64,000 nucleotides of DNA. Origin: Nemertoderma westbladi. Lineage: Eukaryota > Animalia > Xenacoelomorpha. Below, piece after piece: positions 12,103 through 58,122 of this stretch. A program made the translations under genes and the position numbers. Location: the NCBI GenBank assembly GCA_032718475.1, contig JAUCBJ010007494.1, positions 1 through 64,000 of the forward strand. The letters are read 5' to 3'. The notes below the pieces were generated by a model. The model searched no databases. It was not told the DNA's origin and was given only the letters and a program-made list of their open reading frames with translations. Each line of letters starts with the position of its first letter. Positions within the stretch are counted from its first letter, which is position 1.

Positions 12103-12196
12103 ACTGAACCAATTTGTATTGTTGCTAGGTAACAGTTTGAATCAGCTGGTCAGCTGATTCAAACTGTTACCTAGCAACAATACAAATTGGTTCAGT
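12103..12196. repeat. Perfect inverted repeat, 46-bp arms with a 2-nt spacer
   Basis: ACTGAACCAATTTG...AATCAGCTG gt CAGCTGATT...CAAATTGGTTCAGT. Confidence 0.95.
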
Positions 12197-17300: not shown

Positions 17301-17462
17301 TTAGTGTTTCATGAACATAATTCAACCCTTCTACATTCCAAAGCGCGAGTTTTAGTGATCGCATCGGTGTTTGTTCGGAGTCTGAGGTACATTGCACATC
17401 GGAAACTTCGGTAAGGGGGGATGAACCCGTAGCTTCTACATTCCATAAACCGTTTTTTTTTT
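14351..17462 (-). mobile_element. Young 5'-truncated non-LTR retrotransposon (APE-RT; RTEX/L2-group-like, clade uncertain)
   Basis: Flanked by a 61-bp direct duplication (14290-14350 and 17463-17523); A-run plus (TAAA)n 3' tail; GC stem-loop in the 3' UTR near 14387-14401. Confidence 0.9.
14557..17364 (-). CDS. LINE ORF2: AP endonuclease, reverse transcriptase and C-terminal Cys/His finger (about 935 aa)
   Basis: WNVEGL, LTET, GGDFN, STIDL (APE); NYRGV, DFRKAFD, QGDCFSP, FADD, YLGV (RT); CKYC..EDLYHVLEC. The track's ATG at 17475 lies in the target duplication, so the ATG at 17364 is preferred. Confidence 0.92.
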   Translation of the reverse strand: MRSLKLALWNVEGLNYVHETLSNREVVGEADLLLLTETFYCKKEFSFPGFYSYVQPARNSGRGRPQGGLVILAKPELSPKEIAVTDNYLVLRTNAAYILAFYFNPETSIEDILLSISEALTFTNPEVPIILGGDFNCRIDDRATGTRGTDLRTNLQILGFTVQNKSSECTYYSPQGTSTIDLYYTRVPSDIEVRASSVTIRLHPIRKHQRVDLHIVIAFNNEYIDKPAPQLSRKLNTNILEEELRKNDIISYLLEGEIDTAVDNINNTISAASQKHHKSRSHHQPWYDDECKSKKRELMSILHEQRVYSNNVTSYWSLRKEYKRLIKVKMLAHKEELLLNRLRQSEITPWSLWKDARVATVAPIDLKILEQHFETLIGQNETSPESPPNQPFFTPVPGENESDDWYNQPFGETEVNNAINRTANGKACGTDGLFYEHFKQVIPYMITILVLLFNTCLNVSYIPQIWKTSIIKILYKGKGSYSDPGNYRGVAMICVLLKIFTSMINARVISKIKTMLPTEQYGFITGRSTRQALKKFIEFVNVTVHNTNSKPVYAVFVDFRKAFDLVDRNILLNKMYTQFGIKGKLFQLIRAIFNNSVKIYDGIKYSSPIVQLRGILQGDCFSPTGFIMFIADLSTLLRRIGSALLFIFFADDLVLYSTEKEAIQAGLDQLYEWCKLNKMHVNLDKTKVIKFRRGGRLAKADVFKYGGLPIEITNRYTYLGVTLQPTLCFTQHIENKKQRSYTLIGCLRNLNLVSIKTGVKIFKIKIYPAVTYAFPEIAPHLTVSNLKELDKIKSTFLKRLLSLPTNASSTLAHNLTNCKTLTEDICEQYPNIINPAALELYRNFRTERDNNFSGQGYILGPAFKSNVWRSTNQRNRHIITRTTAHGFHHIICSRTTPFHERMQTCTCKYCGNSAEDLYHVLECSSSPELSSLAAQ

Positions 17463-18989
17463 CTATCGATGACATATTATTGAGTATATTATATTAATAT
17501 GAACATATTGCATATTGCTATTGCATTTATTTATATATACCGTTCAGTCATTTAGTAGTTCACATTCATAGAATGGGCCAGTATTGGTTGACAGAAGGAG
17601 ATACGCAATGCGTATCCCATTGCGCCTCATAATAGCCTCTCGTCAACAAGTCAACCCCACCGACTAGCGGCACTGGCTGTTTCAGCTGACGGGGCTCTGT
17701 CGAAAGACGCGTCCCTGATGCAGTAAGGGCCCTCTTTTGAGGAACAATATTATTATTGCCGCGTAACTGTTTTTACTCTAGATCTAGGCCAGACCTAGCC
17801 AGAAGTAGAATCGAGGCCAGCCCCCCCCCCCCCCCCCCCGCCCCAATGACGCAGAGGCAGACCAACAACACACCTCTACCGATGTCGGAGAGTAAAATAT
17901 TAATTATAATTAAAATTATAGAATACAGGATAAGTTTGATCCAAGCAATGCAACGAAACCTGTAAGTTAGAAAATGCATGGTCCCAATATTTGCAAAATA
18001 ATTACAAAGTCCTACATTTATTTTGCATGAGATACTAACAACCCGTCACTAACCACAACAAACGTACTGTATAGTACAGTAGTAGCCTATCGTATTCGCC
18101 CAAATACGGCAGTATAACTCTGGGTTCAGAGAACGTGTACATATTGACAGGCCGCAATCCCCTGATACAGTACCAAGCATGTATTTGATATAAATATTAG
18201 ATTTCTACTTCCATACAATTCTCATTGATTACGCATGTCAATGTTATAATTAAAACAGTCAATTTGATATATTCTTCCGATTCCATAGGCGGCTTACACA
18301 CCAACTCCCACCCTACAGCCCTATTTATCCCAATCCATCAATTTTTGTCACAGGTGGTCTGAGGATACTACATTATACAAAATGAGTTTTCCAACCTGAT
18401 AACTCTGTTTAATTTGACAATGTTTATAATAATAACTTCACCTCGATCCATATACCATATGCATCAAACAGTCTTGCAATGTAATAAATCTGCCCAATAA
18501 CTCATTGAACCGGAAGGACTCCCCTGGCTGACAACATATATCAAAGCTAAAGTAAACACTATCTCTCCTTCATAGACTTATGTCTTCAATATACTACCCA
18601 GAGACAGTCAGTCCCAGGTTATACAAAATTAGTTACCTCGGAGCCAGCAGCTGCTACAGAGTATTACATAACACAAATCCATTTACTATAACATTGCCTT
18701 TCTTTCCATTTCTTTGTCACATTTTCTCAGTTACCCCCCCCCCCCCCCCCCACACCCCTCCCCACCCCTATAAGCAGTCTCATCAAACCACCTGAACTAT
18801 TGCAGGAGTTAAAAGTATCACATTGTCCTAATCCAAATCAACTTGAGAGACAAAGAGCAGCGTTTATTTATTTATTTTTCAGATACATCGCCAACACTTT
18901 CTTATTTTAGTTCATATTAAGTATAACTTATAAACTCTTAACCCAGTGGCTCCCTACTGTAAGAAATGTACGTACGCCAAATGTCAATA

Positions 18990-20024: not shown

Positions 20025-20650
20025 TTAACCCTATTGACATATGGTCTGCGTGACTTTTCCTAAAATTTAATGGGCTATCCAACAGCCAAAACGCCATTTA
20101 CATGACTATGCTAGTTTTCGTGCTGTGGTCCCGTGTTCTGGCACCCATCATCAGTTTTTTTCGTGCAAAAATTTTCAAAAATTTTTTGGCTCACTAACTA
20201 ACATCAATTTATTTCCAGTATATAACGGTTTTTAGGAAGCTGATCACGAATCAAATATGACACTGAAATATATCGTATATTGAAGATTAGGGCATTTTAG
20301 TATTTGTGTCAATATGCGCACCAAAAATACAATTGAAGCACACATTTGATAATCAAAAATCATAACCAAATCAACCTGATTGTTAGATATTATGGGTTAA
20401 CTGGTACGCTGATAACGAATATGACACCCAAAAATATCGTATTATCCATCAAAATTCTATATTTGCAAAATTTAAGAGTTTATAATTTTGTGCTAGGCCT
20501 ACTTGTACTTTTTGTTCTGGGGCACAAGAATGGCACCAAAAATGGATCTGCATTACCGGAAATATTTATAACTATCGTCATCGTGATCAGCGACCTCAAA
20601 AACCCTTATACCATCAAAATTGTAATTTCTCGGAGTCGGATTGATTTAAA
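20025..20650. mobile_element. MITE-like fragment; related inverted fragment at ~56050-56120
   Basis: TTAACCCTATT start. TAGTTTTCGTGCTGTGGTCCC...TGGCACCCAT...TTTTTCGTGC is mirrored at ~56050-56120. Confidence 0.4.
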
Positions 20651-20652
20651 GT

Positions 20653-20957
20653 CGGATTGGGCTGAGGCTGGTGGAAGGGTGGAGCTGCAGCCACAGTGGG
20701 TGGTATAGGGAGGAGCAATTGGATTGGGCTGAGTCTGGTGGGAGGGTGGAGCTGGAGCCACAGCGGGTGGCATAGGGAGGAGCAGTTGGATTGGGCTGAG
20801 GCTTGTGGAAGGGTGGAGCTGGAGCGACAGCGGGAGGTATAGGGAGGAGCAGTTGGATTGGGCTGAGGCTGGTGGATAGGTGGAGCTGGAGCCACAGCGG
20901 GTGGTATAGGGAGGAGCAGTTGGATTGGGCTGAGGCTAGTGGAATGGTGGAGCAGCT
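20653..20957. repeat. Left remnant of the 67-bp G-rich satellite (about 4.5 units)
   Basis: Same unit as 38555-47095; fused directly to gag sequence of element A. Confidence 0.95.
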
Positions 20958-22403
20958 CATCAAGCCCAAATGTGTGTTGTGCGACGGGCCCCATTGTTTA
21001 AGTGTGTGTGAGGAGTTCCTAAAGAAATCCCTAAAAGATAGACGCAAAGTCATGTGGGATAAGCGGTTGTGTTATAATTGTCTCAGACGAGGACACCAAC
21101 GGCGAACCTGTTACTCCGACGCAAGGTGTGCAAAGTGCGGCGCGAAACATCATATTTTGTTGCACACCGAATTCGAAAGAAACAGCCCGAGTCAGGTAAG
21201 TGAATCTGAACTACATGTCCAATTCAGTGATGTGAACGACACTGACCAAAGTTCTGAGATGGAAGAATTCTATACGGATGAATTCTCCGACAAAAACGAA
21301 TCCTGTTACTTAATAAATACCGCAGTGTACCGAGCACTTACGTATGAGAAGGAAACCGACAGTGAGCTCCCCCTAACTACTCCTGACAGACAACCATCTT
21401 GGAAAGCACCAACTTCCAACGTAGGAATCCGAGAATTTCCCGTAGTGCAGTTGAGAGTCCACGGAGTAAATAACAGCTTATAGTGAACGCCCTCCTTGAC
21501 TCCGGCAGCACTGGAACATTCATCGACAAAGAACTAGCCGAAGACATCTTTGCTGGACAACCCAAGTTCCGAACTAAGTTAAACATGTCAGGAATTATGC
21601 ATGTTTGGAAATCTACAGTAATTGCAGATTACTATGTAGGTGCGTTGTCCACCCCCCAGGATGAACTAGGAGAACACAGTATAAGGTCAGTAAAAATGGT
21701 GGCGATAAAGAACTTCGCTACCAGCCAAGTGGAACCTTATAACTGGGACGAGGATGATTGCACCCAGCAGCTTAAGATACCAAGATTCAACACAGACTAC
21801 CCTGGAGTGCAAATACTCATCGGCCAAAATGCACATGAGGCGCTTGAGACATTGGAGAAACGGCCTGTTCAACCGCAACCACTACAAGTCTATGCGGGAA
21901 GAACTAGAGTAGGTTGGTACTTTACTGGCCCTTCCCGTAGAACTCTCATGGAAAGACTGCCCAAAGAACGGGTCTACCAAGTAAGTAAATGGGAAGTGGA
22001 GGGCAGTGAGGTGGACGACCCAACTGAGGGAAGACCATACTCCTCAGATAATGACGACATCAACTCCAATGTAGATCAATGGAGACATTGCCTTGGGATG
22101 ATTAATCCAGCCAACATCGCTTCCAGAGGAACAACTCCTCAAGAACTGATAGATACTCCAGGTTGGTTAAGTGGACCCGACTTCCTAAGTAAAGAAGAAG
22201 ATGAATGGCCTCCTCATCTTACCACGGCGGAGATTAGACAGGCCAAGGGAGCGGGGAAAGTAACACAACAACTCAATCGCCCAGCTGGTCGTTTATGTTT
22301 ACTGGAAAGAGACCGAAAACTGTCCGGAAACTATGGAAGGCAATATACTCTTCCTACGACCACTTCCCTAATCCGACAAATATCTAGGGACTCCATAACA
22401 TAA
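20958..22403 (+). pseudogene. Element A gag knuckles, protease and RNase H-end remnant (frameshift near 21480)
   Basis: CVLCDGPH, CYNCLRRGH, CAKCGAKHH, LLDSGST, QWRHCLGMINPANIASRG; split across ORFs 20803-21483 and 21483-22403. Confidence 0.88.
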
Positions 22404-24988
22404 CAACATACGGAGTGGGTGTGTGACTATATTATTTTGCATATTTTACTATTTTTATAATTATGTATGTATTATTATGTAATTTTATTATAATCGTTTT
22501 CTTTAATTTTATTTAGTCGAATATTATTTTAGTGATTATTTAGTGCAATGTATATATTCGTGTTTATTACTTAATTATGTATATTATATATTTAGTGCGA
22601 CGGCGAGAAATAATTATTTTCTCTTTCCTTACTGTCCGTATCATATTATAAATACGTGACTACAGTAAGATGAAATCTCCGTACTTATTAAAGTACAATA
22701 AAGCTCCTACTATATTCGAGTATTATTGGTAAGCAGAGTATTAGGAATGCAAAGTTCAGATCCTCGTGTCTCGGCTAAACCAAGCTCTGGGTAGACCTTG
22801 AAAACGACTTGCCTCTTCTCACTGACATTGCTTCGTGCGATATTGCTCTCATGCCGTATATTAAATAATACATATAGTAGCGTGATGTCCCTTTAACAGT
22901 AGCGTAAAACGCAAAATAAATGTGTTAAACCCTTTGACCATCTGCAATTCTAGTCTATTAAGATATCGTGGCACCCACCGATATACTTGAAAGACAAGCT
23001 TTAGAATCAGTGGTTAACGTCCCCAGACATGTCTGGAATAAACCGGTGCCCATCCTAAATAATAACAATTAATATTTATTAAAATCTGTAAAATTCAGAT
23101 CCATAAAAATTCTAGTCGATTAAGATATCGTAGCACTTACCGATACTCTTAAAAAGACAATTCATAGAATTAAGGATCTTAGTCCCCAGACATGTTCTGG
23201 AATAAAATTGTGTCTATTTAATATTAAATAATAAAATTACGGGAATAAATTTAAATTCATCTCTTTAATGAATTTGATAAATTGTTATTTTATACAATTT
23301 ATAATATTCCCAAAATTCCATTAATTAATAGATCATGGGAGCGGAGATTCACCCTATTAAGTGTATTAGTGTGCGAGAATCTCCAATATATAGTCAATAG
23401 CCGATAAAATTCATAAAATCATATATAAAGATGATATTGACCATTAAAGACTTACTATTAAATAGCATCCCAGATCTGTATGCATGGGAATTACCCTAAT
23501 TCTACCGCTAGCTTTCCATAATGTTACCATAGCAACAACCACGCTAGAATTAGAAGTGAGTTAACAGAACAATAAAAAGCTTGCTCATTGAATAGCATAC
23601 GGAATAAATAGCACACCGCTAGTATCCAAGGATACATAATAACAACGTGACATTCTGGAAAGCACTTGACTACCGGACAAATGACCTGAATGTGTGATAG
23701 AATGTGTACAATTTGTGATAGTTACGTGGAATTTGTGCGTTTGTAGGTGAATGTTACTACTAAGGTGTGTTTTCAGTAGCGAGTCGCAATTGTGAAAGTA
23801 ACCCTAACTCTGCAGTAAATCTAAGCCCTTGGGACGGACAGTGGAGTGACTCGTGCTGGTTGTCGTTGTCGTCGTGTAGCTACACGTTGGCAAAAAACAC
23901 AGCAACGACGATACATCGGTGCTGAGAATCTCGCACTGTCCGGGGGCAGAGAGGGGTAGGCAGCGACGCCTGCTAGCCTAAATATAAACTCATTATAATA
24001 TTAATAAACTCATATAGCAGATATGACTGAGTTGATAGAAGATGATCTTGGTATCAGGGAGCGATATACTCTATTTTTACAAGCGTTTGTTGATAGCTTG
24101 ATACGCAGCGACGCTGGTCCAACTACTATGGAGGACGATGGTCGTTATATCAAACCGCCAATGTTCCCAAGAGCAGCTCACGCGTGAGTTGGACTATAGA
24201 AAATTCACCGCTCGCTATACGCATTGTAATGGTACGTATATGGACTTCTTAACTACTGGTCATCCTATCGACCTACACGATACGGACGATATAGACACCG
24301 AAAGGGAAATGGTTTTATTTAAATATCATACCCAGTGGAAGCGGAACGATAAACTGAGACTCAAACACGAAAATTCTATTCGAAACCGACTCGAAAGTGA
24401 AGATGTTGAAGAGCCGGATAAACGCAGCGACTTCAACAAATATCTGGAATTCTTGAGAGAAACATATCTCAATATTACCAGTCAACAGAATCTAGAAACT
24501 CGATATCCTCAAGGTATACATCATGACCGCATGGTAGAACTCAAACGGCTCTATTCCACTATGATGTATCTTACCGCCGATCGACCGCTACCTGTTATAC
24601 CGGATAGCTTCGAACAGATGGAGGAATATTGTAAAACTGGAGAACGATCACCCGCGTTTCCCCTACAAGATGTGCGTCTTTGGTATTATTGCGATGAATG
24701 CCCTAGACCCAACCAACAAACGGAAAGACATAAACATCCGCGGAGACGTTGCACTAAACACGGTTTTACTCGCAATACTTGCAGGAGTTTCGAGCGAAAT
24801 TTGTTTGACGTATCACCTACGCTCATTCGACTCAGACGATCCTTAAATAAACCAATGATCAGAGTTCAGGAATACTCGATCAGACCTCCTCATTCCCTAA
24901 CAAGACCTCAGACTCTTGATCCTATTAGTATGACGGATCCGCCCGAGCTGTACTCACTGTTCAAAGATCTAGTGTTACCTGAACAATT

Positions 24989-26217
24989 TGTAAAAGCTTT
25001 TACTGAATTGTCCGGTTATTTTTCCTTATTTTTCCCGTAAAGTACTCTGTAGTTGGTTTACCAGGCATAAAAAGGCCGTGTCCTTGCTGTACTGGTGTTT
25101 TAGCGGACATAAGAGCTATTTCTTCTGTATTTGTACTTTAGAGGACATAATCCGTAATTCCGTGACGTAAAAGCACGATACTCTTGAAAACAGTGTCGCT
25201 ACCATGACGACGGCTAGCAGCTGATATTGCCACGTTGACGTTTCTTTGTTTCTCTGTTCTCTCGTTGTTCAGGTTGACCAATCAGAGCGTTTGTTATCTC
25301 TGTGTTGGAGGTATATACAGAAACTCAGTAGTTCAGTGTTATTGTTTTTGTCCAGAGCCTAAGAACCGGCTTTGGCACCTCCGTGTTTTAGTTTTTAGTC
25401 TTACACTAGTAGGTTTAATTATAAAGGGCATATATCCTTTAACGCACCTACCTGACTCATGGAATCACTGCATACTGATGACTGATGTCTGCATACTGCA
25501 GTACTGCATACACTGCATACTGTGTAACATTGTGCATACCTTTATATTGTTATACTGCTATTTACCGTCAGTTCTTCATAATATGGTTGATGAATAATTA
25601 TATTTGGAATAACGATAAACAACCCCGAAACCCAATGTTCTTGATATACCGAAGGTAAGAGAGAAGGGTTACAGATAAACGATTGTGACTTATGTTAAAG
25701 TGGTTTGAAGTGAATCTAATGTTATTTGATAGACCCTACATGAGCCAGTCTGTGTTCCTTATATATGTGACTAAAATCAGTGAAGATCGGCAGATTAGTG
25801 TGCAGTATTGTGCAGCATTGTGTATGAGTGAGTCTGTTAAAGAAGCATTCCTAAAGAATGCGCCATATATGTGAATTATAATTAAGCCATATCGTTGTGA
25901 GTGGTTTAAGTCATAACTCTGTTTATATAGATAAAGCGCCACGTCCTAAAGGAACTGTTAATATTCCCGAAGGTGAATAATATTGTCAGAGATTATATAA
26001 TACTGTCAGTCGAATAATACATTAGGCTTACATAGCAATAAAATTAAACCGTCGAACCCAATCTCCCGGGAATTTCCAGCGGGTGAATGGTCGCGCACGG
26101 ATTGGTTTCGACTAGTGTAGTGAATCAAATACTTGTCATAGACTAAAAACTGATTTAATATCTAGAAGACATCTTAATTTGGTGGGTTAAACTGCCAAAG
26201 GTCTGAAAGCGCGAACA
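24989..26217 (+). repeat. 5' LTR of element B
   Basis: TGTAAAAGCTTTT...GAAAGCGCGAACA; direct repeat of 35509-36737. Confidence 0.97.
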
Positions 26218-26479
26218 TTAAAGGATATAGCTTCTTTATTGCAGTAAGCAATAAAGTCGAAAGTACCGGTCGACCGGTAACCAGTAGGCCTGACTGCCTG
26301 ATCATCCGGACCGGTACCTACAGCAGTATTATTCGATTTTGATTGTTATATACCAGTAGGTCTTAATAATTAATCGGGGACGCCTGGTTTTTATTGAGAT
26401 TTTACTTATTTCTGTCAAGTTTTATTTATTTGTAAGCCAGTATTGAACAGAAGGCGTGTAAGCCTGATCAGATTGTACA

Positions 26480-27045
26480 GACAATTTGTAGGCTGAGCTG
26501 TTGTCTGATTGCTGTTAAGTCCGAACGAATTGCAGTGTGTGTAGAGCACTTGTCCGATTAAGTACGGTTAGGAAGTAGGGGCAGCAACGCTGTAAGGTAA
26601 TCCCCCAGATAAAGAATAAGTCGCACTACTGGGTTAGAGCGCATACTCCCTAATCATTTCGGAGTCTGCATGTCCTGTAGTTTATTTAGGCTTGAGAGTA
26701 GTCTGCCATCGTTTAGTCTGTACTTTGTTTGTGTAAGTCTGTACGGGTAGCGTATAATTTTATTTAGATAATTTGTAGGCTGGATAGTTGTCTGGCTGTT
26801 ATTAGGTCTGAACGGATTGCTGCGTGTGTAGATCATCTGTCCGATTAAGTACGATTAGGCAGTAGGGGCAGTGAACACTGTAAGGTAAACCCCCAACTAA
26901 AGAATAAGTCGCACTACTGGGTTAGAGCGCATACTCCCTAATCATTTCGGAGTCTGCATATACCGTAGTTTGTTTAGGCTTGATAGTAGTCTGTCAGTGT
27001 TCGGTCTGTATTTTGTTTGAGTAGTTTGTACGCGTAGCGTAATAT
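26480..27045 (+). repeat. ~288-bp tandem duplication in the leader of B (also in C at ~58420-58985)
   Basis: AAGAATAAGTCGCACTACTGGGTTAGAGCGCATACTCCCTAATCATTTCGGAGTCTGCAT at ~26612 and ~26900. Confidence 0.9.
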
Positions 27046-28361
27046 TTATTATTCAGAGTTTATGCGATTATTCGCAACATTCAAGTCCCCAAGTTTGTTC
27101 CTACAGTAATTGTGTTTGTTATACATACCGCTATAGTTAAATTAACCTCGGTACTACACGGGCTGCTCGGCGTAGGTAAAGACTGGTGATTTTGTGCATC
27201 GGTCACTCCAGCAGATGCCGTGGTTCTTTTAGCTGTTCAAGTATATTTAATTACTGATTAACTGTTGTGCAAGTACTCGTACCTAATTTAGGGTTTAGTG
27301 TACAGTGCTTTCCGAGAAGTAATTATTGTAGACATTATATTTGTGTTGTAAAGTGGTTGATAGGCACATTCGATTAGCTCTATTAACTTCTAGGTAGGAA
27401 CACTCCGTGATACATAACGTAGAACCTATAGCGATACGGCTATAGGTCGTCAGGCGGTGGCATTTTCCTATCTAGACAACGCAGTGTATTTACTACTACT
27501 TATTATTTCAAATACCGTAGTACCCTGTCCGCTGTAATAACCGGTTTTCTAACCCTTTGTTAGGCTGGTTTGTAGAATTCTTGTAAAATTACCCTAAAAA
27601 TTCGTATTTTGCGTTTTTGTAAAATTTTGTGTTTATTTAGAGATTGTAATCTCACCCGAATTGTACGTAATTTGTAGTATTAAGTAACTTAGGTAAATTA
27701 GAATTATTTGTTTTAGTGTCTCATAAGTAACACTTCACTGAAAGCGCACCGCTTTGTGTAGTGATTACCCCCAGAAATAATAACATTTATTTCAAACATT
27801 GACAAAACCCATTAAAACGGGTATATATATATTATAAATCAAATCTAACGATTTATAAATCGTAGGCCTACAATACAAACATTAGGTCTCAATATAAGTT
27901 GGACTACTGCTCAAATAACGGTAATAAAGTAAGTAAGTAACCAAGTAACCCTAAAGTTCAGAAATTCAGTTATTTTAAAATAATTGATATACCGGTATTT
28001 ACGATAGGCCTATTATCTTTATTCCTATAAATCTAGGCTGAAATTATACCGGTACGTGTAATTAATTCTATTTCAGAATTATATATCCTACAGACTGTAA
28101 GCTGTATACCGGTATTCCAGATAGGCCTATTATATATTTATATATATTTGTGCTAAAATTATACCGGTATTCGGTGATAAACCTAGTCTGTAATAATAGT
28201 TATATATACTATAAGCATACCGGTATTCTAATATATTATATATATCACGCTACACTGAGTAGCAGTACCGGTGATTAATTACTAGGCTAGCAGTTAATAC
28301 TGAGTTACTAGACTTGCTCAGACTGTAATACGGCAGTAGACATTCAACTGTACACATAAGC

Positions 28362-31300
28362 ATGTCTGACGCAAAGCAGAACCTGTCAGACAGTCTACTA
28401 GATACAACCGAGAGTGAAGTGACAGCAGAGAAACCGCATAAGAGGGATGCCATTGACATCTATCTGTCAGACTATCAGCGTTTTTTGGGAGATGAAGAGT
28501 TGAGGAGAAGGCTAGAGGGACTTAGCCCTAATAGCGAAGGAGCCAAACTCGTGTTAGATGCGATTGATGTGGATAGGTTAGCGGCGAACCAAGCTAAATT
28601 CGATGAACAACTCCGCATCGCTAGAGAACAAGAAGAACAAGTAAAGAAAAAACGTATAGAAGACAGAAAGATAGCAGCAGTGGCAGAGGCGGAAAGAAAA
28701 GCGACCTTGGCAGAAGCAGCGGCAGAGGCAAAAGCGGCAGCAGCAGAAGCAGAGGCAAAGGCAACAAAAGCAGCAGCAGAAGCAAAGGCAGAGGCAAAAG
28801 CGGCAGCGGCAGAGGTAAAAGCGGCAGCGGTGGCGGAAGCAGAACGGAGAGCATCTGAAGAGGCAACCCAACTAGAGTTGGAAAATCTTCAAGAGAGGCA
28901 AGACAACTTCAATAAACAGTTAACAGCTAGTAATATGCAGATGATGAGTCGATCTACTCCCAAAAGACAGGGATATACATCATCGGAGGAAGGCGATACC
29001 ACCGATACTGAAGGCAAAGGAAATAGATCTCGTCTAAGCAGACGTAAAAGAACATTCCACCGTCAGAAATTGCCTGATTTGCCTCCAGCTGTTAGAAGGC
29101 AACTAAATAACACCAACTTAGGTAGTACAGAGCCCACAGACCAAATAATTAAAATAGAAAGACTCCCTACTATAGTGGATGAGCCTGAAATAAGTAGGCC
29201 TGTTCTTGAAATCACCCCTACGGTAATAGATACATCTGTGCTCCCTGAAGCTACCTATAAATTCCCTCTACATAGCACTAAGCTACCTGTGCCCCGTAGG
29301 ACTGCCCGAGAGACAGTTCAGGTCCTGGACCCCGAGCGAAATATTCCGAATTTGTCGCCCGTTGTCCCTTGTCTGCCCGCTACGACGTTGGCGGATCCCG
29401 TTTCGGCGGTTGATTGGGTAGACGAGAGACGGCGGGGGATGGATATTCTCCTCGGAGAGATGAAGGAGAATCGGATACGCTCCTCCCAACAGGTCCGAGA
29501 GTTGGAAGGGACTGTCCAACATTTAAAGGGAACAGTGAGGGAAAGCAAGTTGGAGTTGCAAGAAGTGCAGCAAAATATCGCGCTAGAGCGCGATAAATTA
29601 GTAAGTTTACAAAAGGGTATACCACCACCCTCTGTAACAATGTGTCAACCTGTTAGGTCTGAAGTATTGCATGCGCAAGGTGTGGAGCCTACACGCATAT
29701 ATACTGCTAGCGAAGTAGAAACTCCTATAGTGAACCCTATTAAGGGTAATTATAGACCTGTTGATAATGATATTCCCTATAGAACTGATCATAATCCGAG
29801 AAATTTATATACCGATAACTCGATATTAAATAGCACGATGGCCCAAGAAAGTTTTACGCGTCAAATGGCTAGAACCGAAGCCCGGCAAGCGGTAAAGGTT
29901 GGAGAGATTGTCAAGTTCAATGGAGATGAGATGAAATGGTTACCTTTTAATGAATATTACAAAGATAACATACAGAACTCTGTACTATCTAATGGAGAGA
30001 AACTTAGATTCCTCATCGAATGTTTGGAAGGACCTCCCAAGTCAATGGCGTTAAAATTTATTGGACATCCAGATGGATTAAGACAAGTTTGGGATACACT
30101 AAACATCAGGTATGGTAATAGGAATGACATAGCTGGGTATTTGTATGCAAAATTAATGGCGCCCCGAAAGTTTCTTAGCAGCGGGATTATAGAGTTTTCC
30201 GATGAGATTCAGGAGATCTGTAGACAATTAGATTGGCTAGGTAAGTCTCATGAATACCAGAATTCTATGGTTGTAAGAGCCTTAGCATCTGCTTTGCCCA
30301 AGGGTGGAGTAGGTACACGCTGGGATAAGAAGGTGTTATATATGATGGAACAACAACGACGAGACCCTACCATGACTGATCTCATGTCATTCTTAGATAG
30401 AGAAGTGAAATTACAGCTCCTAAGGCAGTCCAGAGAGAAGACATTGGAAAACAAGGTAAGTGAGAAACCCGTTTCTAGGAGAAGGGTAACACCAGTATGT
30501 TATACCGACGACGGTGAAAGCCAAACCTCTCAAGGAGAGGACAGCGGGAAAGACACTGACAGACCTTATTATGTCAATAAAATGCCTAAAGAACAGGTAA
30601 GTAAATCCAAGTCTCGACCCAATGACAGAAGGGAACCGATACAAAAAACCCCTCCTACGTCTCCTAAAGGAATTCAGGTGAGAAAGCCCGAGGAAAGAAC
30701 AAGTGTGCACCACATAGCACAGGTTAAAGTAAGTAACATCAAGCCGAAATGTGTGCTGTGCGACGGGCCCCACCGTTTAAATGCGTGTGATAAATTCCTG
30801 AGGAAATCACTCGAGGATAGACGTGAAGTCATGTGGGATAAGCGGTTGTGTTATAATTGCCTCAGACGAGGACACCAACGGCGAACCTGTAACTCCGACG
30901 CAAGGTGTGCAAAGTGCGGCGCAAAACATCATATCTTGTTGCACACGGAATTCGAACGAAACAGCCCGAGTCAGGTAAGTGAGTCCGAACTACATGTCCA
31001 ATTCAGTGATGTGAACGACACTGATCAATCTGAGATGGAAGGATTCTATACGGACGAGTTCTCCGACCAAAACGAATCCTGTTACCTAATAAACACCACC
31101 GCAGTGTATCGAGCACTCGTGTATGAGAAAGACACAGACGGCGACCTTACCTTAACTACTTCCGATCAACAACCATCTTGGAAAGCGCCAACTTCCAATA
31201 TAGGGATCCGAGAGTTTCCTGTGGTGCAGGTAAGGGTGCACGGACCTAAACGGAGTTATGTAGTGAACGCCCTCCTGGACTCCGGCAGCACAGGAACATT

Positions 31301-32492
31301 CATCGATAAAGAGCTAGCCGAAGATATATTTGCTGGACAGCCCAAGTTCCAAACTAAGCTCAACATGTCTGGCATTATGCAAGTTTGGAAATCTACAATA
31401 ACAGCTGCTGATTATTATGTAGGCGCGTTGTCCACCCCACAAGACGAACTAGGAGAACACAGCATAAGGTCAGTGAAAATGGTGGCTATAAAGAACTTCG
31501 CTACTACTCAAGCAGACCTTTATAATTGGGATGAGGATGAGAGCATACAACATCTTAACATACCTCGATTCCAGACTGATTATCCTGGAGTGCAAATACT
31601 CATCGGCCAAAACGCGCATGAGGCGCTGGAGACATTAGAGAAACGACCTGCTCAACCGCAGCCACTACAGACCTATGCGGTAAGAACTAGAGTAGGTTGG
31701 TACCTTACTGGACCTTCCCGTAGAACGCTCAGGGAAAGACTGCTTCAAGATCGTGTCTGCCAGGTGAGTGAATGGGAAGACGATACTAGTGAGGGAGACG
31801 ACCCAACTGAGGGAACACCACACTCCTCAGATAATGACAATCTTAGCTCCAATGTAGATCAATGGAGATATTGCCCCAAGAAGTTTAATCCAACGGACAT
31901 CGCTTCCAGAGGAGCAACTCCTCAAGAACTGACAGATACTATAGACCGGTTAGGTGAACCCGACTTCCTGAGTAAGGAGAATGAATGGCCTCCCCATCTT
32001 ACTCCGACTGAGATTAGACCAGCCAAGGGAGCGGAGAAAGTCGAACCTGAAACCCGGACGGGTGGATCGGAGTTATTTGAACCCGGGATAGATCTGTCGG
32101 TATTACATGTTGCCAGGGACGACGCCGTGGATCTGGGCCTCCCCTCCGCGAGTGGATCCTTCATGAAGATCAGAGAGAGCGATTGGAGCTCTGGAACATC
32201 AGACGTCTCGCAGGGACTCTCACCTCTCCTGCAGAGAGCGACGGACCACTATAGCTCCTGGAATCGGCTTTGTGACGCCGTCATATACTTTGAGCGATGT
32301 TTCTATCGTCACTATTCCAGGACGAAGAGGAAACCTGGAATTGTATTCAGGATGCAGCGACTCAATCACCCAGTCGGTCGTTTGTGTTTATCGGAAGGGA
32401 ATGGAGGACTCTCCGGAAACTGTGGAAGACAAGATTCTCTTCCCACGACCACCTCCCTAATCCTTCAAACATCTAGGGACTCCATAACGTAA
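28362..32492 (+). CDS. BEL/Pao gag-protease polyprotein lacking RT and integrase (1376 aa)
   Basis: Ala/Glu/Lys repeat, capsid-like KFNGDEMKW..EKLRFLIECL, three Cys/His knuckles, LLDSGSTGTFI protease, then a jump to the RNase H end (QWRYCPKKFNPTDIASRG) and SSWNRL linker; no YxDD or DDE motifs. Confidence 0.92.
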   Translation: MSDAKQNLSDSLLDTTESEVTAEKPHKRDAIDIYLSDYQRFLGDEELRRRLEGLSPNSEGAKLVLDAIDVDRLAANQAKFDEQLRIAREQEEQVKKKRIEDRKIAAVAEAERKATLAEAAAEAKAAAAEAEAKATKAAAEAKAEAKAAAAEVKAAAVAEAERRASEEATQLELENLQERQDNFNKQLTASNMQMMSRSTPKRQGYTSSEEGDTTDTEGKGNRSRLSRRKRTFHRQKLPDLPPAVRRQLNNTNLGSTEPTDQIIKIERLPTIVDEPEISRPVLEITPTVIDTSVLPEATYKFPLHSTKLPVPRRTARETVQVLDPERNIPNLSPVVPCLPATTLADPVSAVDWVDERRRGMDILLGEMKENRIRSSQQVRELEGTVQHLKGTVRESKLELQEVQQNIALERDKLVSLQKGIPPPSVTMCQPVRSEVLHAQGVEPTRIYTASEVETPIVNPIKGNYRPVDNDIPYRTDHNPRNLYTDNSILNSTMAQESFTRQMARTEARQAVKVGEIVKFNGDEMKWLPFNEYYKDNIQNSVLSNGEKLRFLIECLEGPPKSMALKFIGHPDGLRQVWDTLNIRYGNRNDIAGYLYAKLMAPRKFLSSGIIEFSDEIQEICRQLDWLGKSHEYQNSMVVRALASALPKGGVGTRWDKKVLYMMEQQRRDPTMTDLMSFLDREVKLQLLRQSREKTLENKVSEKPVSRRRVTPVCYTDDGESQTSQGEDSGKDTDRPYYVNKMPKEQVSKSKSRPNDRREPIQKTPPTSPKGIQVRKPEERTSVHHIAQVKVSNIKPKCVLCDGPHRLNACDKFLRKSLEDRREVMWDKRLCYNCLRRGHQRRTCNSDARCAKCGAKHHILLHTEFERNSPSQVSESELHVQFSDVNDTDQSEMEGFYTDEFSDQNESCYLINTTAVYRALVYEKDTDGDLTLTTSDQQPSWKAPTSNIGIREFPVVQVRVHGPKRSYVVNALLDSGSTGTFIDKELAEDIFAGQPKFQTKLNMSGIMQVWKSTITAADYYVGALSTPQDELGEHSIRSVKMVAIKNFATTQADLYNWDEDESIQHLNIPRFQTDYPGVQILIGQNAHEALETLEKRPAQPQPLQTYAVRTRVGWYLTGPSRRTLRERLLQDRVCQVSEWEDDTSEGDDPTEGTPHSSDNDNLSSNVDQWRYCPKKFNPTDIASRGATPQELTDTIDRLGEPDFLSKENEWPPHLTPTEIRPAKGAEKVEPETRTGGSELFEPGIDLSVLHVARDDAVDLGLPSASGSFMKIRESDWSSGTSDVSQGLSPLLQRATDHYSSWNRLCDAVIYFERCFYRHYSRTKRKPGIVFRMQRLNHPVGRLCLSEGNGGLSGNCGRQDSLPTTTSLILQTSRDSIT

Positions 32493-34147
32493 CAACATAT
32501 GGAGTGGGTGTGTGACTCTATTATTTTATATTATTTTATTATTTTTATATTTCTGTATGTATTACTATGTAATTTTATTATAATCGTTTTCTTTAATTTT
32601 ATTCAGTAGAATGTTATTTTAGCGATTATTTAGTAGATTAGTGCAATATATATTCGCGTTTATTACTTAATTACGTATATATTATATTTAATGCGACGGC
32701 AAGAAATAATTCTTTTCCTCTTTCCTTACTGTCCGTATCATATTATAAATACGTGACTACAGTAAGATGAAATGTCCGTACTTATTAAAGTACAATAAAG
32801 CCACTACTATATTTAAGTATTATTGGTAGGCAGAGTATTAGGAATGCAAAGTTCAGATCCTCGTGTCTCGGCTAAACCAAGCTCTGGGTAGACCTTGGAA
32901 ACGACTTGCCTCTTCACACTGACATTGCTTCGTGCGATATTGCTCTCATACCGTATATTAAATAATACATATAGTAGCGTGATGTCTCTTTAACAGTAGC
33001 GTGTAACGCAAAATAAATCTGTTAAACCCTTTGACCATCTGTAATTCTAGTCGATTAAGATATCGCGGCACCCACCGATATCCTTGAAAGACAAATTCTA
33101 GAATCAGTGGTTAACGTCCCCAGACAAGTTCTGGAATAAATCGGTGCCCATCTCAAATATTAATTAGTTAATATTTACAAATCAAATAAGTCAAAATCTG
33201 TAAAATCCAGATCCTTCAACAATTCTAGTCAATTAAGATATCGTAGCATTTACCGATATTCTTAAAGAGACAATTTCTTAGAATTAAGGATCTTGTGCCC
33301 CTAGACATGTTCTAGAATCAAAATATGTCCATTTAATTATCAAATAATAAAATTTCAGGGAATAAATTTAAATTCATGCCTTTTAATGAATTTAATAAAT
33401 TGCCATTTTACGCAATTTATAAAGTTCCCAAAATTCCATTAATTAATAGATCAAGGGAGCGGAGATTTATCTTATCATGCGTATGAGAGTGTGAAAGTCT
33501 CCCAAACATAGTTAATAGCCGATAAAATTCTTAAAGTCATGTATAAACAGGACATTGACTATTAAAGAATTCCTATTAAATAACATCCCAGATCTGTATG
33601 CATTGGAATTACTCTAATTCTACCGCTAGCTTTGCATAATGTCACCATAGCAACAACCACGCTAGAATTAGAATTGAGTTAAAAGAACAATAGAAAGCTT
33701 GTCCCATTGAATAGCATAGGGAATAAATAGCGCACTACTAGTATCCAAGGATACATAATAATACAGTGACATTCTGGAAGGCATTGACTAACGGACAAAT
33801 GGCTCGAATGTGTGTAATTTGTGACAAGTTGTGTGTGTGGTATTTGTGAGTTTATAGGTGAATGTTACTGCTAAGGTGTGTTTACAGTAGCCAGTAGCAA
33901 TCGTAAAGTAACCTAACTCTCCAAGGAATACCTGAAGTACATCTAAGTCTTTGGGACGGACAGTCGAGTGACTTGTGCCGGTTGTCGTTGTCGTTGTGCG
34001 GCTACGTCGTTGGCGAAAGTACAGCGGCGACGACACATCGGCGCTGAGGATCTCGTACTGTCCGGGGGTTAATTGGAGTAGGCAGCGACGCTCGCTAGCC
34101 TGAATATAAACTCCTTATAATGTGGATAAACTCATATATAGCAGACA

Positions 34148-35508
34148 TGACGGAGTTGATGGAAGATGTTCTTGGTATCGGGGAGCGATATACTCTACTT
34201 TTGCAAGCGTTTGTTGATAGCTTAATACGCGGCGACGTTAGTCCAACTGCTGCGGAGGACGATGGTCGTTATATCGAACCGCCAATGTCCCAAGAGCAGC
34301 TCACGCGTGAGTTGGACTATAGAAAATTCGCTGCTCGATATACGCGGCGTAATGGTATGTATATGGGCTTCTTAACTACTGGTCATCCTATCGATTTACA
34401 CAATACGGACTATGTCGACTATATATCCTGCCCAGCGGAGTCGGAACCATAAACGGAAATTCGAATGCGAAAATTCTATTCGAAATCGACTCGAAAGAAA
34501 AGACACTTAAGAAACAAATGGACGCGGTAACTCCAAAGTATATTTGGAATTCTTGATAGAAGCATTGTAACAACAAATAAATGTCACCCGCGTTTACCCT
34601 ACCAGACGTGCGTCTTTGGTATTATTACGATAAAAGCCCTAGACCCAAATAATAAACGGAAAGACATAAACATCCATGTAAACCGAAACTTGTTGACGTA
34701 TCACCTATGCTCACTCGGCTCGAACGATCCTGGAGTAAACCTACGATCAGAGTCCCGGAATACTCGGTCAAACCTCCTCATTCCTTAGTTGGACCTCAGA
34801 CTTGCGATCCTGGTGGTGTCGCGGATCCTCGCGGACGGTATTCACTGTTCAAGATCTAGTGCTACCCTAACAATTAATCGGTAACACTCCGACAGTGATT
34901 TCTAGCTAGCCGCCCATCTTACCTAGCTGGATTATGACGCAGACACCTAATATCATTATCCAATCGTATGGTCGTCCCGTTTAACGCGATACAACCCTTC
35001 ATCAAGGTGAAGGAGAGCATTGTACGAAACGAGTTAAACGCTATTCTATAAAGATCAAAAAGGAAACCTGCGTTTGTTCAGATAAACGTAAGTTATAACA
35101 GTAAGTCCAATCGATAAACGAATTGGCCTTATCTCAATTCGATTGGGAAATCCAGAATCTCTAAGAAGTTATCGAACTTGGACGATCCTATTCTCTGCGA
35201 GAGTTTTTGGATGAACGTATCCAGCTACGAGCGGAGGAAAATCAGCTCGAGGAGAAGCATATCGAAACGGCAGATACCCCGACCACAATCCTACACCTTC
35301 TGATGCAATCATATTGCACCCTTCACCCAGGAGTTATGGCCCTCCTAGTAAAGTGGCTCCCCCCAAAGAGAAAAAGACTCTTGCTAGCCTCAAAAAACTG
35401 CGTAAACGCCGTCTGCGTAAGAAAGACTAACTGTTTAGAGTATCTTTATGTTTTAGAAACTGTGATTTTTATATTTTATAGACTGAAAATCCCATTTTCT
35501 GGGAGCGG
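34148..35508 (+). pseudogene. Element B ORF2, degenerate (deletions and stops)
   Basis: MTELMEDVLGIGERYTL...QEQLTRELDYRKF and ...LHPGVMALLVKWL...ASKNCVNAV are homologous to ORF2 of A. Confidence 0.7.
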
Positions 35509-36737
35509 TGTAAAAGCTTTTACTGAATTGTCCGGTTATTTTTCCTTATTTTTCCCGTAAAGTACTCTGTAGTTGGTTTACCAGGCATAAAAAGGCCGTG
35601 TCCTTGCTGTACTGGTGTTTTAGCGGACATAAGAGCTATTTCTTCTGTATTTGTACTTTAGAGGACATAATCCGTAATTCCGTGACGTAAAAGCACGATA
35701 CTCTTGAAAACAGTGTCGCTACCATGACGACGGCTAGCAGCTGATATTGCCACGTCGACGTTTCTTTGTTTCTCTGTTCTCTCGTTGTTCAGGTTGACCA
35801 ATCAGAGCGTTTGTTATCTCTGTGTTGGAGGTATATACAGAAACTCAGTAGTTCAGTGTTATTGTTTTTGTCCAGAGCCTAAGAACCGGCTTTGGCACCT
35901 CCGTGTTTTAGTTTTTAGTCTTACACTAGTAGGTTTAATTATAAAGGGCATATATCCTTTAACGCACCTACCTGACTCATGGAATCACTGCATACTGATG
36001 ACTGATGTCTGCATACTGCAGTACTGCATACACTGCATACTGTGTAACATTGTGCATACCTTTATATTGTTATACTGCTATTTACCGTCAGTTCTTCATA
36101 ATATGGTTGATGAATAATTATATTTGGAATAACGATAAACAACCCCGAAACCCAATGTTCTTGATATACCGAAGGTAAGAGAGAAGGGTTACAGATAAAC
36201 GATTGTGACTTATGTTAAAGTGGTTTGAAGTGAATCTAATGTTATTTGATAGACCCTACATGAGCCAGTCTGTGTTCCTTATATATGTGACTAAAATCAG
36301 TGAAGATCGGCAGATTAGTGTGCAGTATTGTGCAGCATTGTGTATGAGTGAGTCTGTTAAAGAAGCATTCCTAAAGAATGCGCCATATATGTGAATTATA
36401 ATTAAGCCATATCGTTGTGAGTGGTTTAAGTCATAACTCTGTTTATATAGATAAAGCGCCACGTCCTAAAGGAACTGTTAATATTCCCGAAGGTGAATAA
36501 TATTGTCAGAGATTATATAATACTGTCAGTCGAATAATACATTAGGCTTACATAGCAATAAAATTAAACCGTCGAACCCAATCTCCCGGGAATTTCCAGC
36601 GGGTGAATGGTCGCGCACGGATTGGTTTCGACTAGTGTAGTGAATCAAATACTTGTCATAGACTAAAAACTGATTTAATATCTAGAAGACATCTTAATTT
36701 GGTGGGTTAAACTGCCAAAGGTCTGAAAGCGCGAACA
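35509..36737 (+). repeat. 3' LTR of element B
   Basis: Matches the 5' LTR; I spotted one substitution (CACGTTGACG vs CACGTCGACG). Confidence 0.97.
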
Positions 36738-37366: not shown

Positions 37367-38554
37367 TGTAAAAGCTTTTGCGGGATGTAACTGGCCCTTT
37401 TTCTCCGCAATCCAGTTTTCCCTCAATGCGCTCAAATACTCTAAAACTGCCTGGCTTGAGTGACGCAGTCTGCTGGCTGATTGGCTGATTTGCTGTGCGT
37501 GTATGGCCTCTTTGTTCTGTTCGATCAACCAATCAGAACAATGATCGACCAATCAGAGCGATTTCGCCTTGTGTTGGCTGTGGGCTGCAAAGGCTAGGGT
37601 GGTTTGGCATTTAGACATTCGTGGAACCTGTGGAATATGGAGCTCCGCCAATGAGAGCTATTTCTCTTTGTGTTGAAAGATACCTACAACAGCCCACAGG
37701 GATCAGTGTGTTGGTTTTCCAGATGCCTGAACATCGGCTATGGAATAATTATGTGTTTCAGACTTTAGCCAAACATTAGAACGGCTTTGATTACCGGAAC
37801 GTATAACTGTTATCAAACCAATGCATGACTCGCATACCTGGCATATCAGACTCAGTATATGCCTTTCACCACATTATTTTACTGCTATTTACTGTCGGTT
37901 GTTAATTGTATCTGTTGATGGAATATTGTTATATTTGGATAATATCGATAAATAATCATAAAACCCCATCTTCTTGATATACTGAAGGTAAGAGACCGGT
38001 TACATATAGCAATTGCGACTTATATGATATTGGTTTTGGAGTGAATCTAATGCTATTTCATAGGCACTACATGGGTCAATTGCTGTTCTCTTTATATGTG
38101 ACTAAAATTAGTGAAGGTCGGCATATCAGTGTGCAGTATTATGCGGTACCGGTAGTGTGCATGATTGTGACAGATAACTAAGCATCTCCTAAAGAATGCG
38201 CCTTATACGTAAATCAATAGCCATCCCGTTGTGTTTAGTGTAAGTCATAGGTCTATTTATATATTTAGAGCGCCACGTCCAAAAGGAACTGTTAATATCT
38301 CCCGAAAGTGAATAATATTTGTCAGAGATTATATATTAACGATCAATCGAATAATACAGTAGGCCTACACCACAATAAGGTCAGAGCCCCCGAATCCAGT
38401 CTCCCGGGTATATCCAACGGGTGAATGGTCGCGCATAGGCTGGCTTCGGCTAATGTAGTGTATCAAATACTCGTCATAGGCTAAAGTCGATTTATAATCT
38501 AGAAGACACCTAAATTAGGCGGGTTAAACTGCCTAAGGTCTAAAAGCGCGAACA
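37367..38554 (+). repeat. 3' LTR of element A (diverged subfamily)
   Basis: GGGAGCGG|TGTAAAAGCTTTT...AAAGCGCGAACA; 3' two-thirds alignable to the B LTR. Confidence 0.92.
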
Positions 38555-56898: not shown

Positions 56899-58122
56899 TG
56901 TAAAAGCTTTTGTGGGATAACTGATTCGTTTGCCTTGTTGGCCAGTTCCCCCCCAGTCGCTAAGAATACTCTCAAAGTGATCTATAGTTAAAATAGTGTA
57001 AGCTACCAGCTTATTGGCTGATTTGTGGGATGCAGGTATCTGGGCTCTGTTAATCGTCCAACTAGCCTAAGAGGGTTGCGTCATAGCCTGTTTTTGTATC
57101 TTCCAATAGAAATTTGAGTTATCCTGGATTTTAACCAATCCTGAGCTACTGAACTGAAAATTCCTATCTCACTGCTCATCCTCTGTGTTGAACGGGAGCT
57201 TTGGGGAATAAGTGTAGTTGGTATTCTCGTAGTCACGAGTTTTTTAAAGCCACGAAAGAACGGCTTATAGTGTTTTGTGCTTTTCTGCTTTTTAGTTTAA
57301 CACTAGCAGGTTTAATTATAAGGACATATATCCTTTAACTGGCAAAACAAACTGCATATCATATCAAACTGCGGACTGCATACCTAACGCACGGCATACT
57401 ACTGACTGCTGAAACATTGCAAACTCATAACAATCAGTGTTCAGTTGTTGTTTTATACTGCTATTTACTGTCGGTTATTCATTATATTTGTGGATGAATT
57501 ATTATATTTGGAATAACGAGAAACAACCCCGAAACCCAATATTCTTGATATACCGAAGGTAAGAGAGAAAGGTTACAGATAAACGATTGTGACTTATGTT
57601 AAAGTGGTTTGAAGTGAATTTAATGTTATTTGATAGACCCTACATGAGTCAGCCTGTGTTCCTTTTATATGTGACTAAAATCAGTGAAGATCGGCAGATT
57701 AGTGTGCAGTATTGTGCAGCATTGTGTATGCGTGAGTCTGTTAAAGAAGCATTTCCTAAAGAATGCGCCATATATGTTAATTATAACTAAACCATATCGT
57801 TGTGAGTAGTTTAAGTCATAACTCTGTTTATATAGATAGAGCGCCACGTCCTAAAGGAACTGTTAATATTCCCGAAGGTAAATAATATTGTCAGAGATTA
57901 TATAATACTGTCAGTCGAATAATACATTAGGCTTACATAGCAATAAAATTAAACCGTCGAACCCAATCTCCCGGGAATATCCAGCGGGTGAATGGTCGCG
58001 CACGGATTGGTTTCGACTAGTGTAGTGAATCAAATATTTGTCGTAGGCAGAAAAGCGATTTAATATCTAGAAGACATCATAATTTGGTGGGTTAAACTGC
58101 CAAAGGTCTGAAAGCGCGAACA
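56899..58122 (+). repeat. 5' LTR of element C (1224 bp)
   Basis: TGTAAAAGCTTTT...GAAAGCGCGAACA followed by TTAAAGGATATAG as in B. Confidence 0.93.

What the first reader, a model, noticed from the sequence alone, without database searches (positions are those of the whole stretch)
26051..26217. Covarying RNA secondary structure in U5 of the A/B/C LTRs
Seen: B pairs GTCGAA-c-CCAATC (26051) with GATTGG-t-TTCGAC (to 26112); A has CCGAA-t-CCAGTCT (38390) with AGGCTGG-c-TTCGG (to 38449), i.e. compensatory T-A to C-G and A-T to G-C changes. A second hairpin TTTGGTG/TGCCAAA in B (26178-26199) is TTAGGCG/TGCCTAA in A (38515-38536). The enclosed CGGGTGAATGGTCGCGCA is invariant, and TGGTCGCGC could pair with the terminal GCGCGAACA with one mismatch. 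Inference: a selected multi-stem RNA element for priming, packaging or dimerisation.
Basis: partly seen in the sequence, partly recalled or inferred. Interest (0 to 1): 0.72.

Follow-up and report, generated by a model that had tools for sequence, protein, structure and literature searches.

The report
Folded RNA end of self-priming retrotransposon
The last 170 bases of a jumping gene's terminal repeat keep their base-pairing despite many letter changes between copies, and they sit right beside a site that matches the element's own sequence instead of a host tRNA, so this folded RNA likely helps the element prime its own copying.

Summary
The region is the 3' end of the LTR of a young, RT-less BEL/Pao retrotransposon (B), shared with relatives A and C. 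Structure is conserved beyond chance: z -3.0 and -2.5 on the sense strand only; the A/B consensus energy is matched by 0 of 300 and 2 of 300 nulls; three upstream LTR windows show nothing. But only two independent sequences exist (A versus B/C). A mutually exclusive fold is 7.6-9.9 kcal/mol more stable and has 2 compensatory changes of its own. The 12 bases right after the LTR are the exact reverse complement of LTR positions 25431-25442, the Tf1 self-priming geometry (1 other such match in 9,265 control positions). Best reading: a U5-IR-like structure that serves self-primed reverse transcription, possibly switching between two folds. No RNA data, no Rfam match, no outside homologue. This scan has already noted self-priming BEL/Pao elements on other DNA (8 unchecked notes); my paper searches found none in print.

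The parts
24989..26217 (+). 5' LTR of element B (1229 bp, TG...CA)
   Evidence: 99.9% identical to 35509-36737; 5-bp target duplication CAATT on both flanks
25431..25442 (+). Predicted self-primer: exact reverse complement of the 12 bases that follow the LTR
   Evidence: same in C (57327-57338 with 58123-58134); control 2 of 9266 start positions, one being this site; pairing probability 0.98-0.99 if the RNA starts at 25425-25431, 0.73 from 25415, 0.00 from 25380
25838..25846 (+). 9-nt complement of 26230-26238, a candidate third ('pretzel') duplex
   Evidence: control 65 of 9266 reach 9 or more; not formed in co-folding (probability 0.0); site differs in A
26051..26112 (+).
   Evidence: 13 pairs, 2 compensatory, 2 one-sided, 1 broken; best helix of the 660-column A/B alignment
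26058..26090 (+). Invariant core hairpin (9 pairs with two 1x1 mismatches); its lower half competes with fold I
   Evidence: MFE of A, B and C; probability 0.92-0.98 in all long contexts; no variation, so no covariation
26091..26214 (+). Fold II closing helices: 26091-26096 with 26209-26214 (invariant, ends 3 nt before the primer site) and 26098-26103 with 26200-26205
   Evidence: MFE and RNAalifold consensus; 26098/26205 C-G to U-A compensatory plus 3 one-sided changes, none broken
26104..26151 (+). Fold II inner arm: 26104-26108 with 26147-26151 (weak) and middle hairpin 26113-26140 (shared by both folds)
   Evidence: 1 compensatory pair next to an indel, 1 pair broken in C; common variants at 26150 and 26151 break pairs
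26178..26199 (+). Second hairpin, shared by both folds
   Evidence: 8 pairs, 1 compensatory, 1 one-sided; probability 0.87-0.95; variants at 26183 and 26184 keep the pairs
26218..26229 (+). Primer-binding position; no TGG, complementary to 25431-25442
   Evidence: sequence; duplex -11.6 kcal/mol
26234..26256 (+). 9-bp hairpin just after the primer site
   Evidence: probability 0.95-0.99
28329..32492 (+). Gag-protease ORF of B (1387 aa stop to stop); RT and RNase H core missing
   Evidence: DUF1759 E 1.2e-12; zinc knuckles and LLDSGS protease motif; tblastn of P0018 jumps from residue 959 to 1511
35509..36737 (+). 3' LTR of B (structure copy at 36571-36737), preceded by a purine-rich tract
37367..38554 (+). 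3' LTR of older relative A (structure copy 38389-38554), the only independent sequence
   Evidence: 79% identical to B over the last 680 nt
56899..58122 (+). 5' LTR of relative C (structure copy 57956-58122)

Best explanation
The last 170 bases of the LTR of an RT-less BEL/Pao retrotransposon keep a strand-specific base-paired fold across copies, and this fold likely works as the U5-IR-like part of a Tf1-style self-priming structure: the predicted front 12 bases of the element's RNA would pair with the site right after the LTR and would be cut free to prime reverse transcription. SHOWN: element anatomy, absence of a tRNA-type PBS, the exact 12-nt complement in register with the LTR end, and structure-preserving divergence between A and B. 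PREDICTED by folding: fold II (core hairpin, then a multi-stem domain closed by 26091-26096/26209-26214, which ends 3 nt before the primer site) is the main state. INFERRED: transcription starts at about 25430; RT and RNase H come in trans from an autonomous BEL/Pao partner; RNase H cuts after 25442; the closing helix positions the primer end.
For: Sense-strand z -2.99 (B) and -2.45 (A) against -0.41 for B antisense. In sliding windows the terminal window is the lowest in both LTRs, -2.3 and -3.2. A/B consensus energy is -44.3 against null means of -27.3 and -30.9 (0 of 300 and 2 of 300), while three upstream windows have 232-269 of 300 nulls as good. Paired columns diverge as fast as unpaired ones (16 of 96 against 12 of 67) yet the A/B changes break no fold II pair and one fold I pair. 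The 12-nt complement starts at the first base after the LTR, with 1 other such match in 9,265 control positions, and meets the published criterion of at least 10 bp starting 0-5 bp downstream (PMC6317226, passages). B integrated recently with this site (LTRs 99.9% identical, TSD), so some primer used it. Tf1 needs two extra duplexes made by PBS-adjacent sequence with LTR sequence downstream of the primer (10.1101/2022.12.06.519325, passages); the terminal helix fits one of them.
Against: Two independent sequences only; shuffle controls give 17 of 500 and 23 of 500, which the tool says are not probabilities. In the 860-nt leader, the fold II closing helices fall to probability 0.02-0.06 (0.29 from one start) and recover to 0.5-0.85 only in shorter contexts. 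The third pretzel duplex does not form in co-folding. No RNA start is known; a TATA-like word lies only 6-11 nt before the predicted primer in B, which would put the start downstream of it, though C and A do not keep that word. The primer site differs in A and A's PBS is deleted, so primer/PBS covariation could not be tested. The primer site also sits in an imperfect local palindrome. Terminal invariance can reflect integrase recognition at the DNA level (established knowledge). Weak B windows upstream reach z -1.9 on both strands.
Confidence: 0.52

Rival explanations
1. Two-state RNA switch: segment 26098-26112 alternates between an upstream partner (fold I, the reader's stem, with the terminal helix as a pseudoknot) and downstream partners (fold II), separating a template/priming state from a translation or packaging state, as retroviral leaders are thought to do.
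For: Each fold has 2 compensatory pairs that the other does not explain; post-hoc neutral probabilities are 0.004 for fold I and 0.0006 for fold II. Fold I survives a search-corrected null (0 of 150). Loose ends of contigs point to a further variant changed at both 26053 and 26110 to an A-U pair (unphased, 5' side in X1, X3 and X4, 3' side in X1 only).
Against: Enforcing fold I costs 7.6, 9.9 and 8.9 kcal/mol in B, A and C without a pseudoknot term, and fold I is not the MFE of any of the truncations tried. Its probability is 0.05 or less in every long context. The segment is G/U-rich and pairs promiscuously: further partners appear. A 26110 G>A variant (4% of depth in X1) would break a fold I pair unless its partner changes.
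Confidence: 0.35
2. The structure is a real but priming-independent signal for Gag binding, packaging, dimerisation or 3'-end processing, kept because a non-autonomous element needs it to be carried by a helper's particle.
For: The family has lost RT and keeps Gag and cis signals; A and B share the deletion. Structured U5/leader regions serve packaging in retroviruses (search listing).
Against: No test here points to packaging. No conserved poly(A) hexamer: AATAAA at 26037 in B and C is absent in A. The closing helix abuts the primer site, which fits priming better.
Confidence: 0.25
3. The 12-nt complement marks the RNA's 3' end or is primed otherwise (poly(A)-site priming or an unusual tRNA fragment), and U5 is then the whole 775 nt after it.
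For: A TATAAA word, a minor poly(A) hexamer by recall, lies 17 nt before the end of the site in B; an earlier scan note proposes such a case on other DNA (e1-7468529, unchecked).
Against: The word is not kept in C or A. The family-specific variable block ends just upstream of the site, as expected for U3 ending at a transcription start. No host tRNA set could be searched.
Confidence: 0.1
4. Chance: G/U-rich sequence with transition-biased divergence between two copies mimics covariation, and the invariant ends are DNA-level integrase signals.
For: Only two independent sequences; transitions are 19 of 28 differences; 10 of 150 nulls give an 8-bp helix with 2 compensatory changes.
Against: Nulls that keep the transition and transversion counts fail (0 of 300 and 2 of 300); the signal is strand-specific and local.
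Confidence: 0.1

Closest known systems
Tf1/Tf2/Tj1 and the Tf1/sushi group (Ty3/gypsy chromoviruses): self-primed reverse transcription with a three-duplex 'pretzel' RNA
   Same: No tRNA PBS; 11-12 nt LTR-internal complement to the site after the 5' LTR; a duplex between PBS-adjacent U5 sequence and LTR sequence downstream of the primer (passages of PMC7175516, PMC4600332 and 10.1101/2022.12.06.519325).
   Different: This is a BEL/Pao element, non-autonomous. The primer and its site are 775 nt apart. The U5 domain is a 170-nt multi-stem fold with a second possible conformation. The third duplex is doubtful here.
Retroviral U5-IR / U5-leader stems and alternative 5'-leader conformers
   Same: Structured LTR 3' end beside the primer site; a Tf1 paper's title states that self-priming needs a U5-IR-like structure (title seen in reference lists only; PMC109269 not held).
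   Different: Retroviruses prime with tRNA; no sequence or Rfam similarity. Leader switching is recalled, with only a search listing seen.
Canonical BEL/Pao (Belpaoviridae) elements such as Achilles
   Same: DUF1759 Gag, zinc knuckles, protease, TG...CA LTRs, 5-bp target duplication.
   Different: Achilles has a tRNA-Tyr PBS (PMC4580426, passages); B has none and lacks RT/RNase H.
Plant TAR/Houba/Osr-1 (Ty1/copia) and Tcn1 predicted self-primers
   Same: Same sequence criterion met (PMC6317226, passages).
   Different: Different superfamily and kingdom.

Membership tests
BEL/Pao LTR retrotransposon | DUF1759-type Gag with CCHC knuckles and aspartic protease | tested here: met
   PF03564 E 1.2e-12; invariant C/H columns and protease D against 7 relatives; 5 of the 7 best hits carry both PF05380 and PF03564
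BEL/Pao LTR retrotransposon | Paired TG...CA LTRs, target duplication, purine tract | tested here: met
BEL/Pao LTR retrotransposon (autonomous) | RT, RNase H and integrase in pol | tested here: not met
   No RT/RNase H core or integrase hit in A or B: a deletion derivative
BEL/Pao LTR retrotransposon (canonical) | tRNA-complementary PBS beginning TGG within a few bases of the LTR | tested here: not met
   No TGG in the first 40 bases after either 5' LTR; half-tRNA priming could not be tested without the host tRNA set
Tf1-type self-priming elements | At least 10 bp complement in the 5' LTR to sequence starting 0-5 bp after it | tested here: met
   12 bp, offset 0, in B and C (criterion)
Tf1-type self-priming elements | The primer is the 5' end of the RNA | not testable with these tools
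   No RNA reads were available
Tf1-type self-priming elements | RNase H cleavage releases the primer | not testable with these tools
   Biochemical
Tf1-type self-priming elements | Two flanking duplexes (pretzel) | tested here: inconclusive
   Upstream duplex is in the local MFE but weak in the long leader; the downstream 9-bp duplex is possible but loses to a local hairpin
Tf1/sushi group (membership) | Ty3/gypsy chromovirus protein lineage | tested here: not met
   Proteins are BEL/Pao
Any Rfam RNA family (that Rfam holds the small ribozymes is recalled) | Match to a covariance model | tested here: not met
   0 at gathering threshold over 64 kb; 3 weak hits with E 1.2 or worse in 25300-26400, none in the feature

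The most novel reading that the evidence does not exclude
A BEL/Pao lineage has independently evolved tRNA-free self-priming, and its 170-nt U5 domain is a selected two-state RNA switch in which one segment carries compensatory changes for both of its mutually exclusive partners, gating primer cleavage or extension so that one transcript class is translated and another is copied.
Probability: 0.25. Interest if true: 0.72.

Novelty: new variant of a known kind. Interest (0 to 1): 0.47.

Why it matters
Structured U5 RNA beside a primer site is expected in LTR elements, but I found no description of it for BEL/Pao, nor of self-priming in that superfamily, in the searches listed under Tried and rejected. 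If true, self-priming with its supporting U5 structure arose or persisted in a third LTR superfamily, which bears on whether tRNA priming is ancestral or late (a question raised in PMC3601003, passages). A non-autonomous family that kept only Gag, protease and these cis signals marks out the minimal RNA needs for being copied in trans. It also explains why tRNA-PBS-based LTR annotation would miss such elements.

Tried and rejected
No whole genome is held, so no genome-wide LTR alignment was possible. Pattern scans gave 32 metagenome loci and 1 viral locus; none of the 33 has blastn similarity to the LTR at E 0.01 and they are chance matches. Protein-based locus searches found no relative in viral contigs (neighbour D's RT region as query) or prokaryote genomes; an alignment query was too divergent to use. 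No RNA holder was listed; X5 is only guessed to be RNA, and all 4 runs laid are contigs, so start, end, strand and splicing were not observable; no joint at the candidate splice sites was among those listed. A covariance model from the 3 sequences found only its own 4 copies; the next hit was 11.6 bits, so neighbour element D has no detectable counterpart. D showed no complement of 11 nt or more after any of 10 candidate AACA ends (best 10); its LTR end is unknown and spliced primers were not tested. Rfam: nothing. No tRNA genes in the window. Ribozyme and group I/II motif resemblances considered by eye from recall were dropped. Searches used mis-registered middle helices and are superseded. 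The idea that fold I is the MFE of a nascent, shorter RNA was tested and failed. Paper searches for self-priming in BEL/Pao: (0 papers; 17 with 3 of 4 terms, 16 listed; 6 papers), and (107 with 2 of 4 terms, 15 listed, none showing 'belpaovirus'); no title or passage read describes it. Passages were read in 3 of the 6 papers. PMC3118150 has no mention of primer, tRNA or PBS in its main text; its supplements and subscription papers (Frame 2001, Butler 2001, the Levin papers, GyDB/Repbase notes, all recalled or seen as references only) were not seen and may bear on novelty. PMC9094657 and PMC3286476 passages gave nothing on BEL/Pao priming.

Full report
Setting. The window is animal DNA rich in repeats; relatives of the neighbouring element's RT come from corals, sea urchin, tunicate, molluscs and fish at 30-44% identity, so the host group is not fixed. 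Self-comparison shows element B with LTRs 24989-26217 and 35509-36737 (99.9% identical) and a CAATT target duplication, inserted into an older relative A (20954-38554, 5' part lost next to a 67-bp satellite; about 84% identical internally). A third relative C starts at 56899 and runs off the window. B's single long ORF has DUF1759, zinc knuckles and a protease motif but jumps over RT and RNase H; A shows the same jump. These are non-autonomous BEL/Pao elements. The first 400 nt of the LTR differ among A, B and C; the last 680 nt are shared, 79% between A and B. Contigs of 4 public runs show many variant copies.

Observation. The long stem has 13 pairs: 8 invariant, 2 compensatory, 2 one-sided, 1 broken in A. 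The second hairpin has 8 pairs: 1 compensatory, 1 one-sided. The four copies amount to two independent sequences.

Is it more than chance? Yes, on three tests. (a) Folding z-scores are -2.99 for B and -2.45 for A on the sense strand and -0.41 for B antisense; among 9 windows of B and 8 of A the terminal one is lowest in each. (b) The A/B consensus energy at 26050-26217 is -44.3; moving the same 19 transitions and 9 transversions at random gives means of -27.3 and -30.9, with 0 of 300 and 2 of 300 as low; in three upstream windows 232-269 of 300 nulls do as well. This test does not choose helices in advance. Strand asymmetry and the use of G-U pairs point to RNA rather than DNA.

Which fold? 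Fold II has an invariant core hairpin (26058-26090) followed by a domain closed by 26091-26096/26209-26214 and 26098-26103/26200-26205. It has 42 pairs, 99.2% of cells paired and 3 compensatory pairs; fold I with the terminal helix as a pseudoknot has 39 pairs, 99.1% and 3. One compensatory pair is shared; each fold has two of its own. Enforcing fold I costs 7.6-9.9 kcal/mol without any pseudoknot credit. Fold II places most of the invariant core in pairs, which explains its invariance better. Against fold II: one of its two private compensatory pairs lies beside an indel in a 5-bp helix that is broken in C and by common variants (26150 C>G, 31% of depth in X1 and 77% in X3; 26151 T>A, 20% in X1). 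In the long leader only the core hairpin and the 26178-26199 hairpin stay probable; the closing helices drop to 0.02-0.06 in most contexts and fold I to 0.05 or less. Of 21 variant rows none lies in 26075-26098 or 26185-26240; the common ones at 26099 (45% in X1) and 26183 (62%) keep their pairs, and 26139 (6%) breaks one. That list is unphased and not exhaustive (26071, listed, is missing from it). Loose ends hint at a further double change at 26053/26110 that would favour fold I, but the two sides are on different contigs.

What is it for? The primer position decides most. After the LTR there is no TGG; instead 26218-26229 is the exact reverse complement of 25431-25442, with the 3' end of the upstream piece facing the first base after the LTR. 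C has the same. Of 9,266 internal start positions only 2 reach 12 nt, this one included. [quoted passage not shown] The duplex is predicted at 0.98-0.99 when the RNA starts at 25425-25431 and vanishes from 25380, so the model needs a start near 25430; the variable block ending just upstream fits U3 ending there, but no RNA shows it. Tf1 also needs two duplexes flanking the PBS (10.1101/2022.12.06.519325, passages). A 9-nt match 26230-26238/25838-25846 fits the downstream one (65 of 9,266 by chance) but loses to a local hairpin in co-folding. I noted the self-priming reading before consulting earlier scan notes; the later look-up showed 8 unchecked notes of self-priming BEL/Pao elements on other DNA, one mentioning a possible RNA switch. 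They are leads, not support. A look-up for a covarying U5 structure returned none, and none for this sequence or genome.

Comparison and verdict. It works like the U5-IR part of the Tf1 priming structure; it is not a member of the Tf1/sushi group, and matches no Rfam family. It is a defective BEL/Pao element that fails the canonical tRNA-PBS feature (contrast Achilles, PMC4580426, passages). My odds: conserved RNA structure real 0.85; self-priming 0.75; structure serves priming 0.5; both folds functional 0.35. Structured U5 RNA is an expected kind of thing; its link to tRNA-free priming in BEL/Pao and the possible two-state behaviour make it a new variant of a known kind. Interest 0.47, limited by two independent sequences and no RNA evidence.

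Noticed in passing
window 25652-25660, 25990, 26231-26244: A strong splice-donor-like site (25655) is kept in A, B and C; acceptor-like AGs lie at 25990 and, by eye, at 26244 in the loop of the post-PBS hairpin. Splicing to 26244 would remove the U5 structure and the primer site from an mRNA. No RNA evidence.
   Followed up: partly
window 24989-25391, 37367-37790, 56899-57288: The first 400 nt of the LTR are nearly unrelated among A, B and C apart from the first 13 bases, although B and C are 91% identical downstream: modular exchange of U3.
   Followed up: partly
window 912-6656 (minus) and 6657-10100: Distant BEL/Pao element D (23% identity to B's Gag-protease) with an RT motif, stopping at 912; its LTR ends and primer site were not found.
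   Followed up: partly
window 20650-20953 and 38555-47097: G-rich 67-bp satellite (128 copies in the long array) flanks element A on both sides; A's 5' part is missing at the left junction.
   Followed up: no
window 26478-27057 and 58420-59000: Two tandem 288-bp units in the 2.1-kb leader before gag, in both B and C.
   Followed up: no
window 21474-22403 and 24102-25040, 32493-35508: The 3-kb region between the ORF end and the 3' LTR is 82-85% conserved between A and B; ORFs of about 310 aa in A have no Pfam match.
   Followed up: no
window 14557-17493 (minus): LINE-type ORF with endonuclease and RT domains.
   Followed up: no
window 12103-12196 and 52042-52174: Two near-perfect long palindromes (46-bp and 59-bp arms).
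   Followed up: no
window 9120-9134 (plus): A 15-nt stretch loosely resembling the invariant core lies in the region upstream of D, in opposite orientation; the covariance model gave no hit there, so likely chance.
   Followed up: partly
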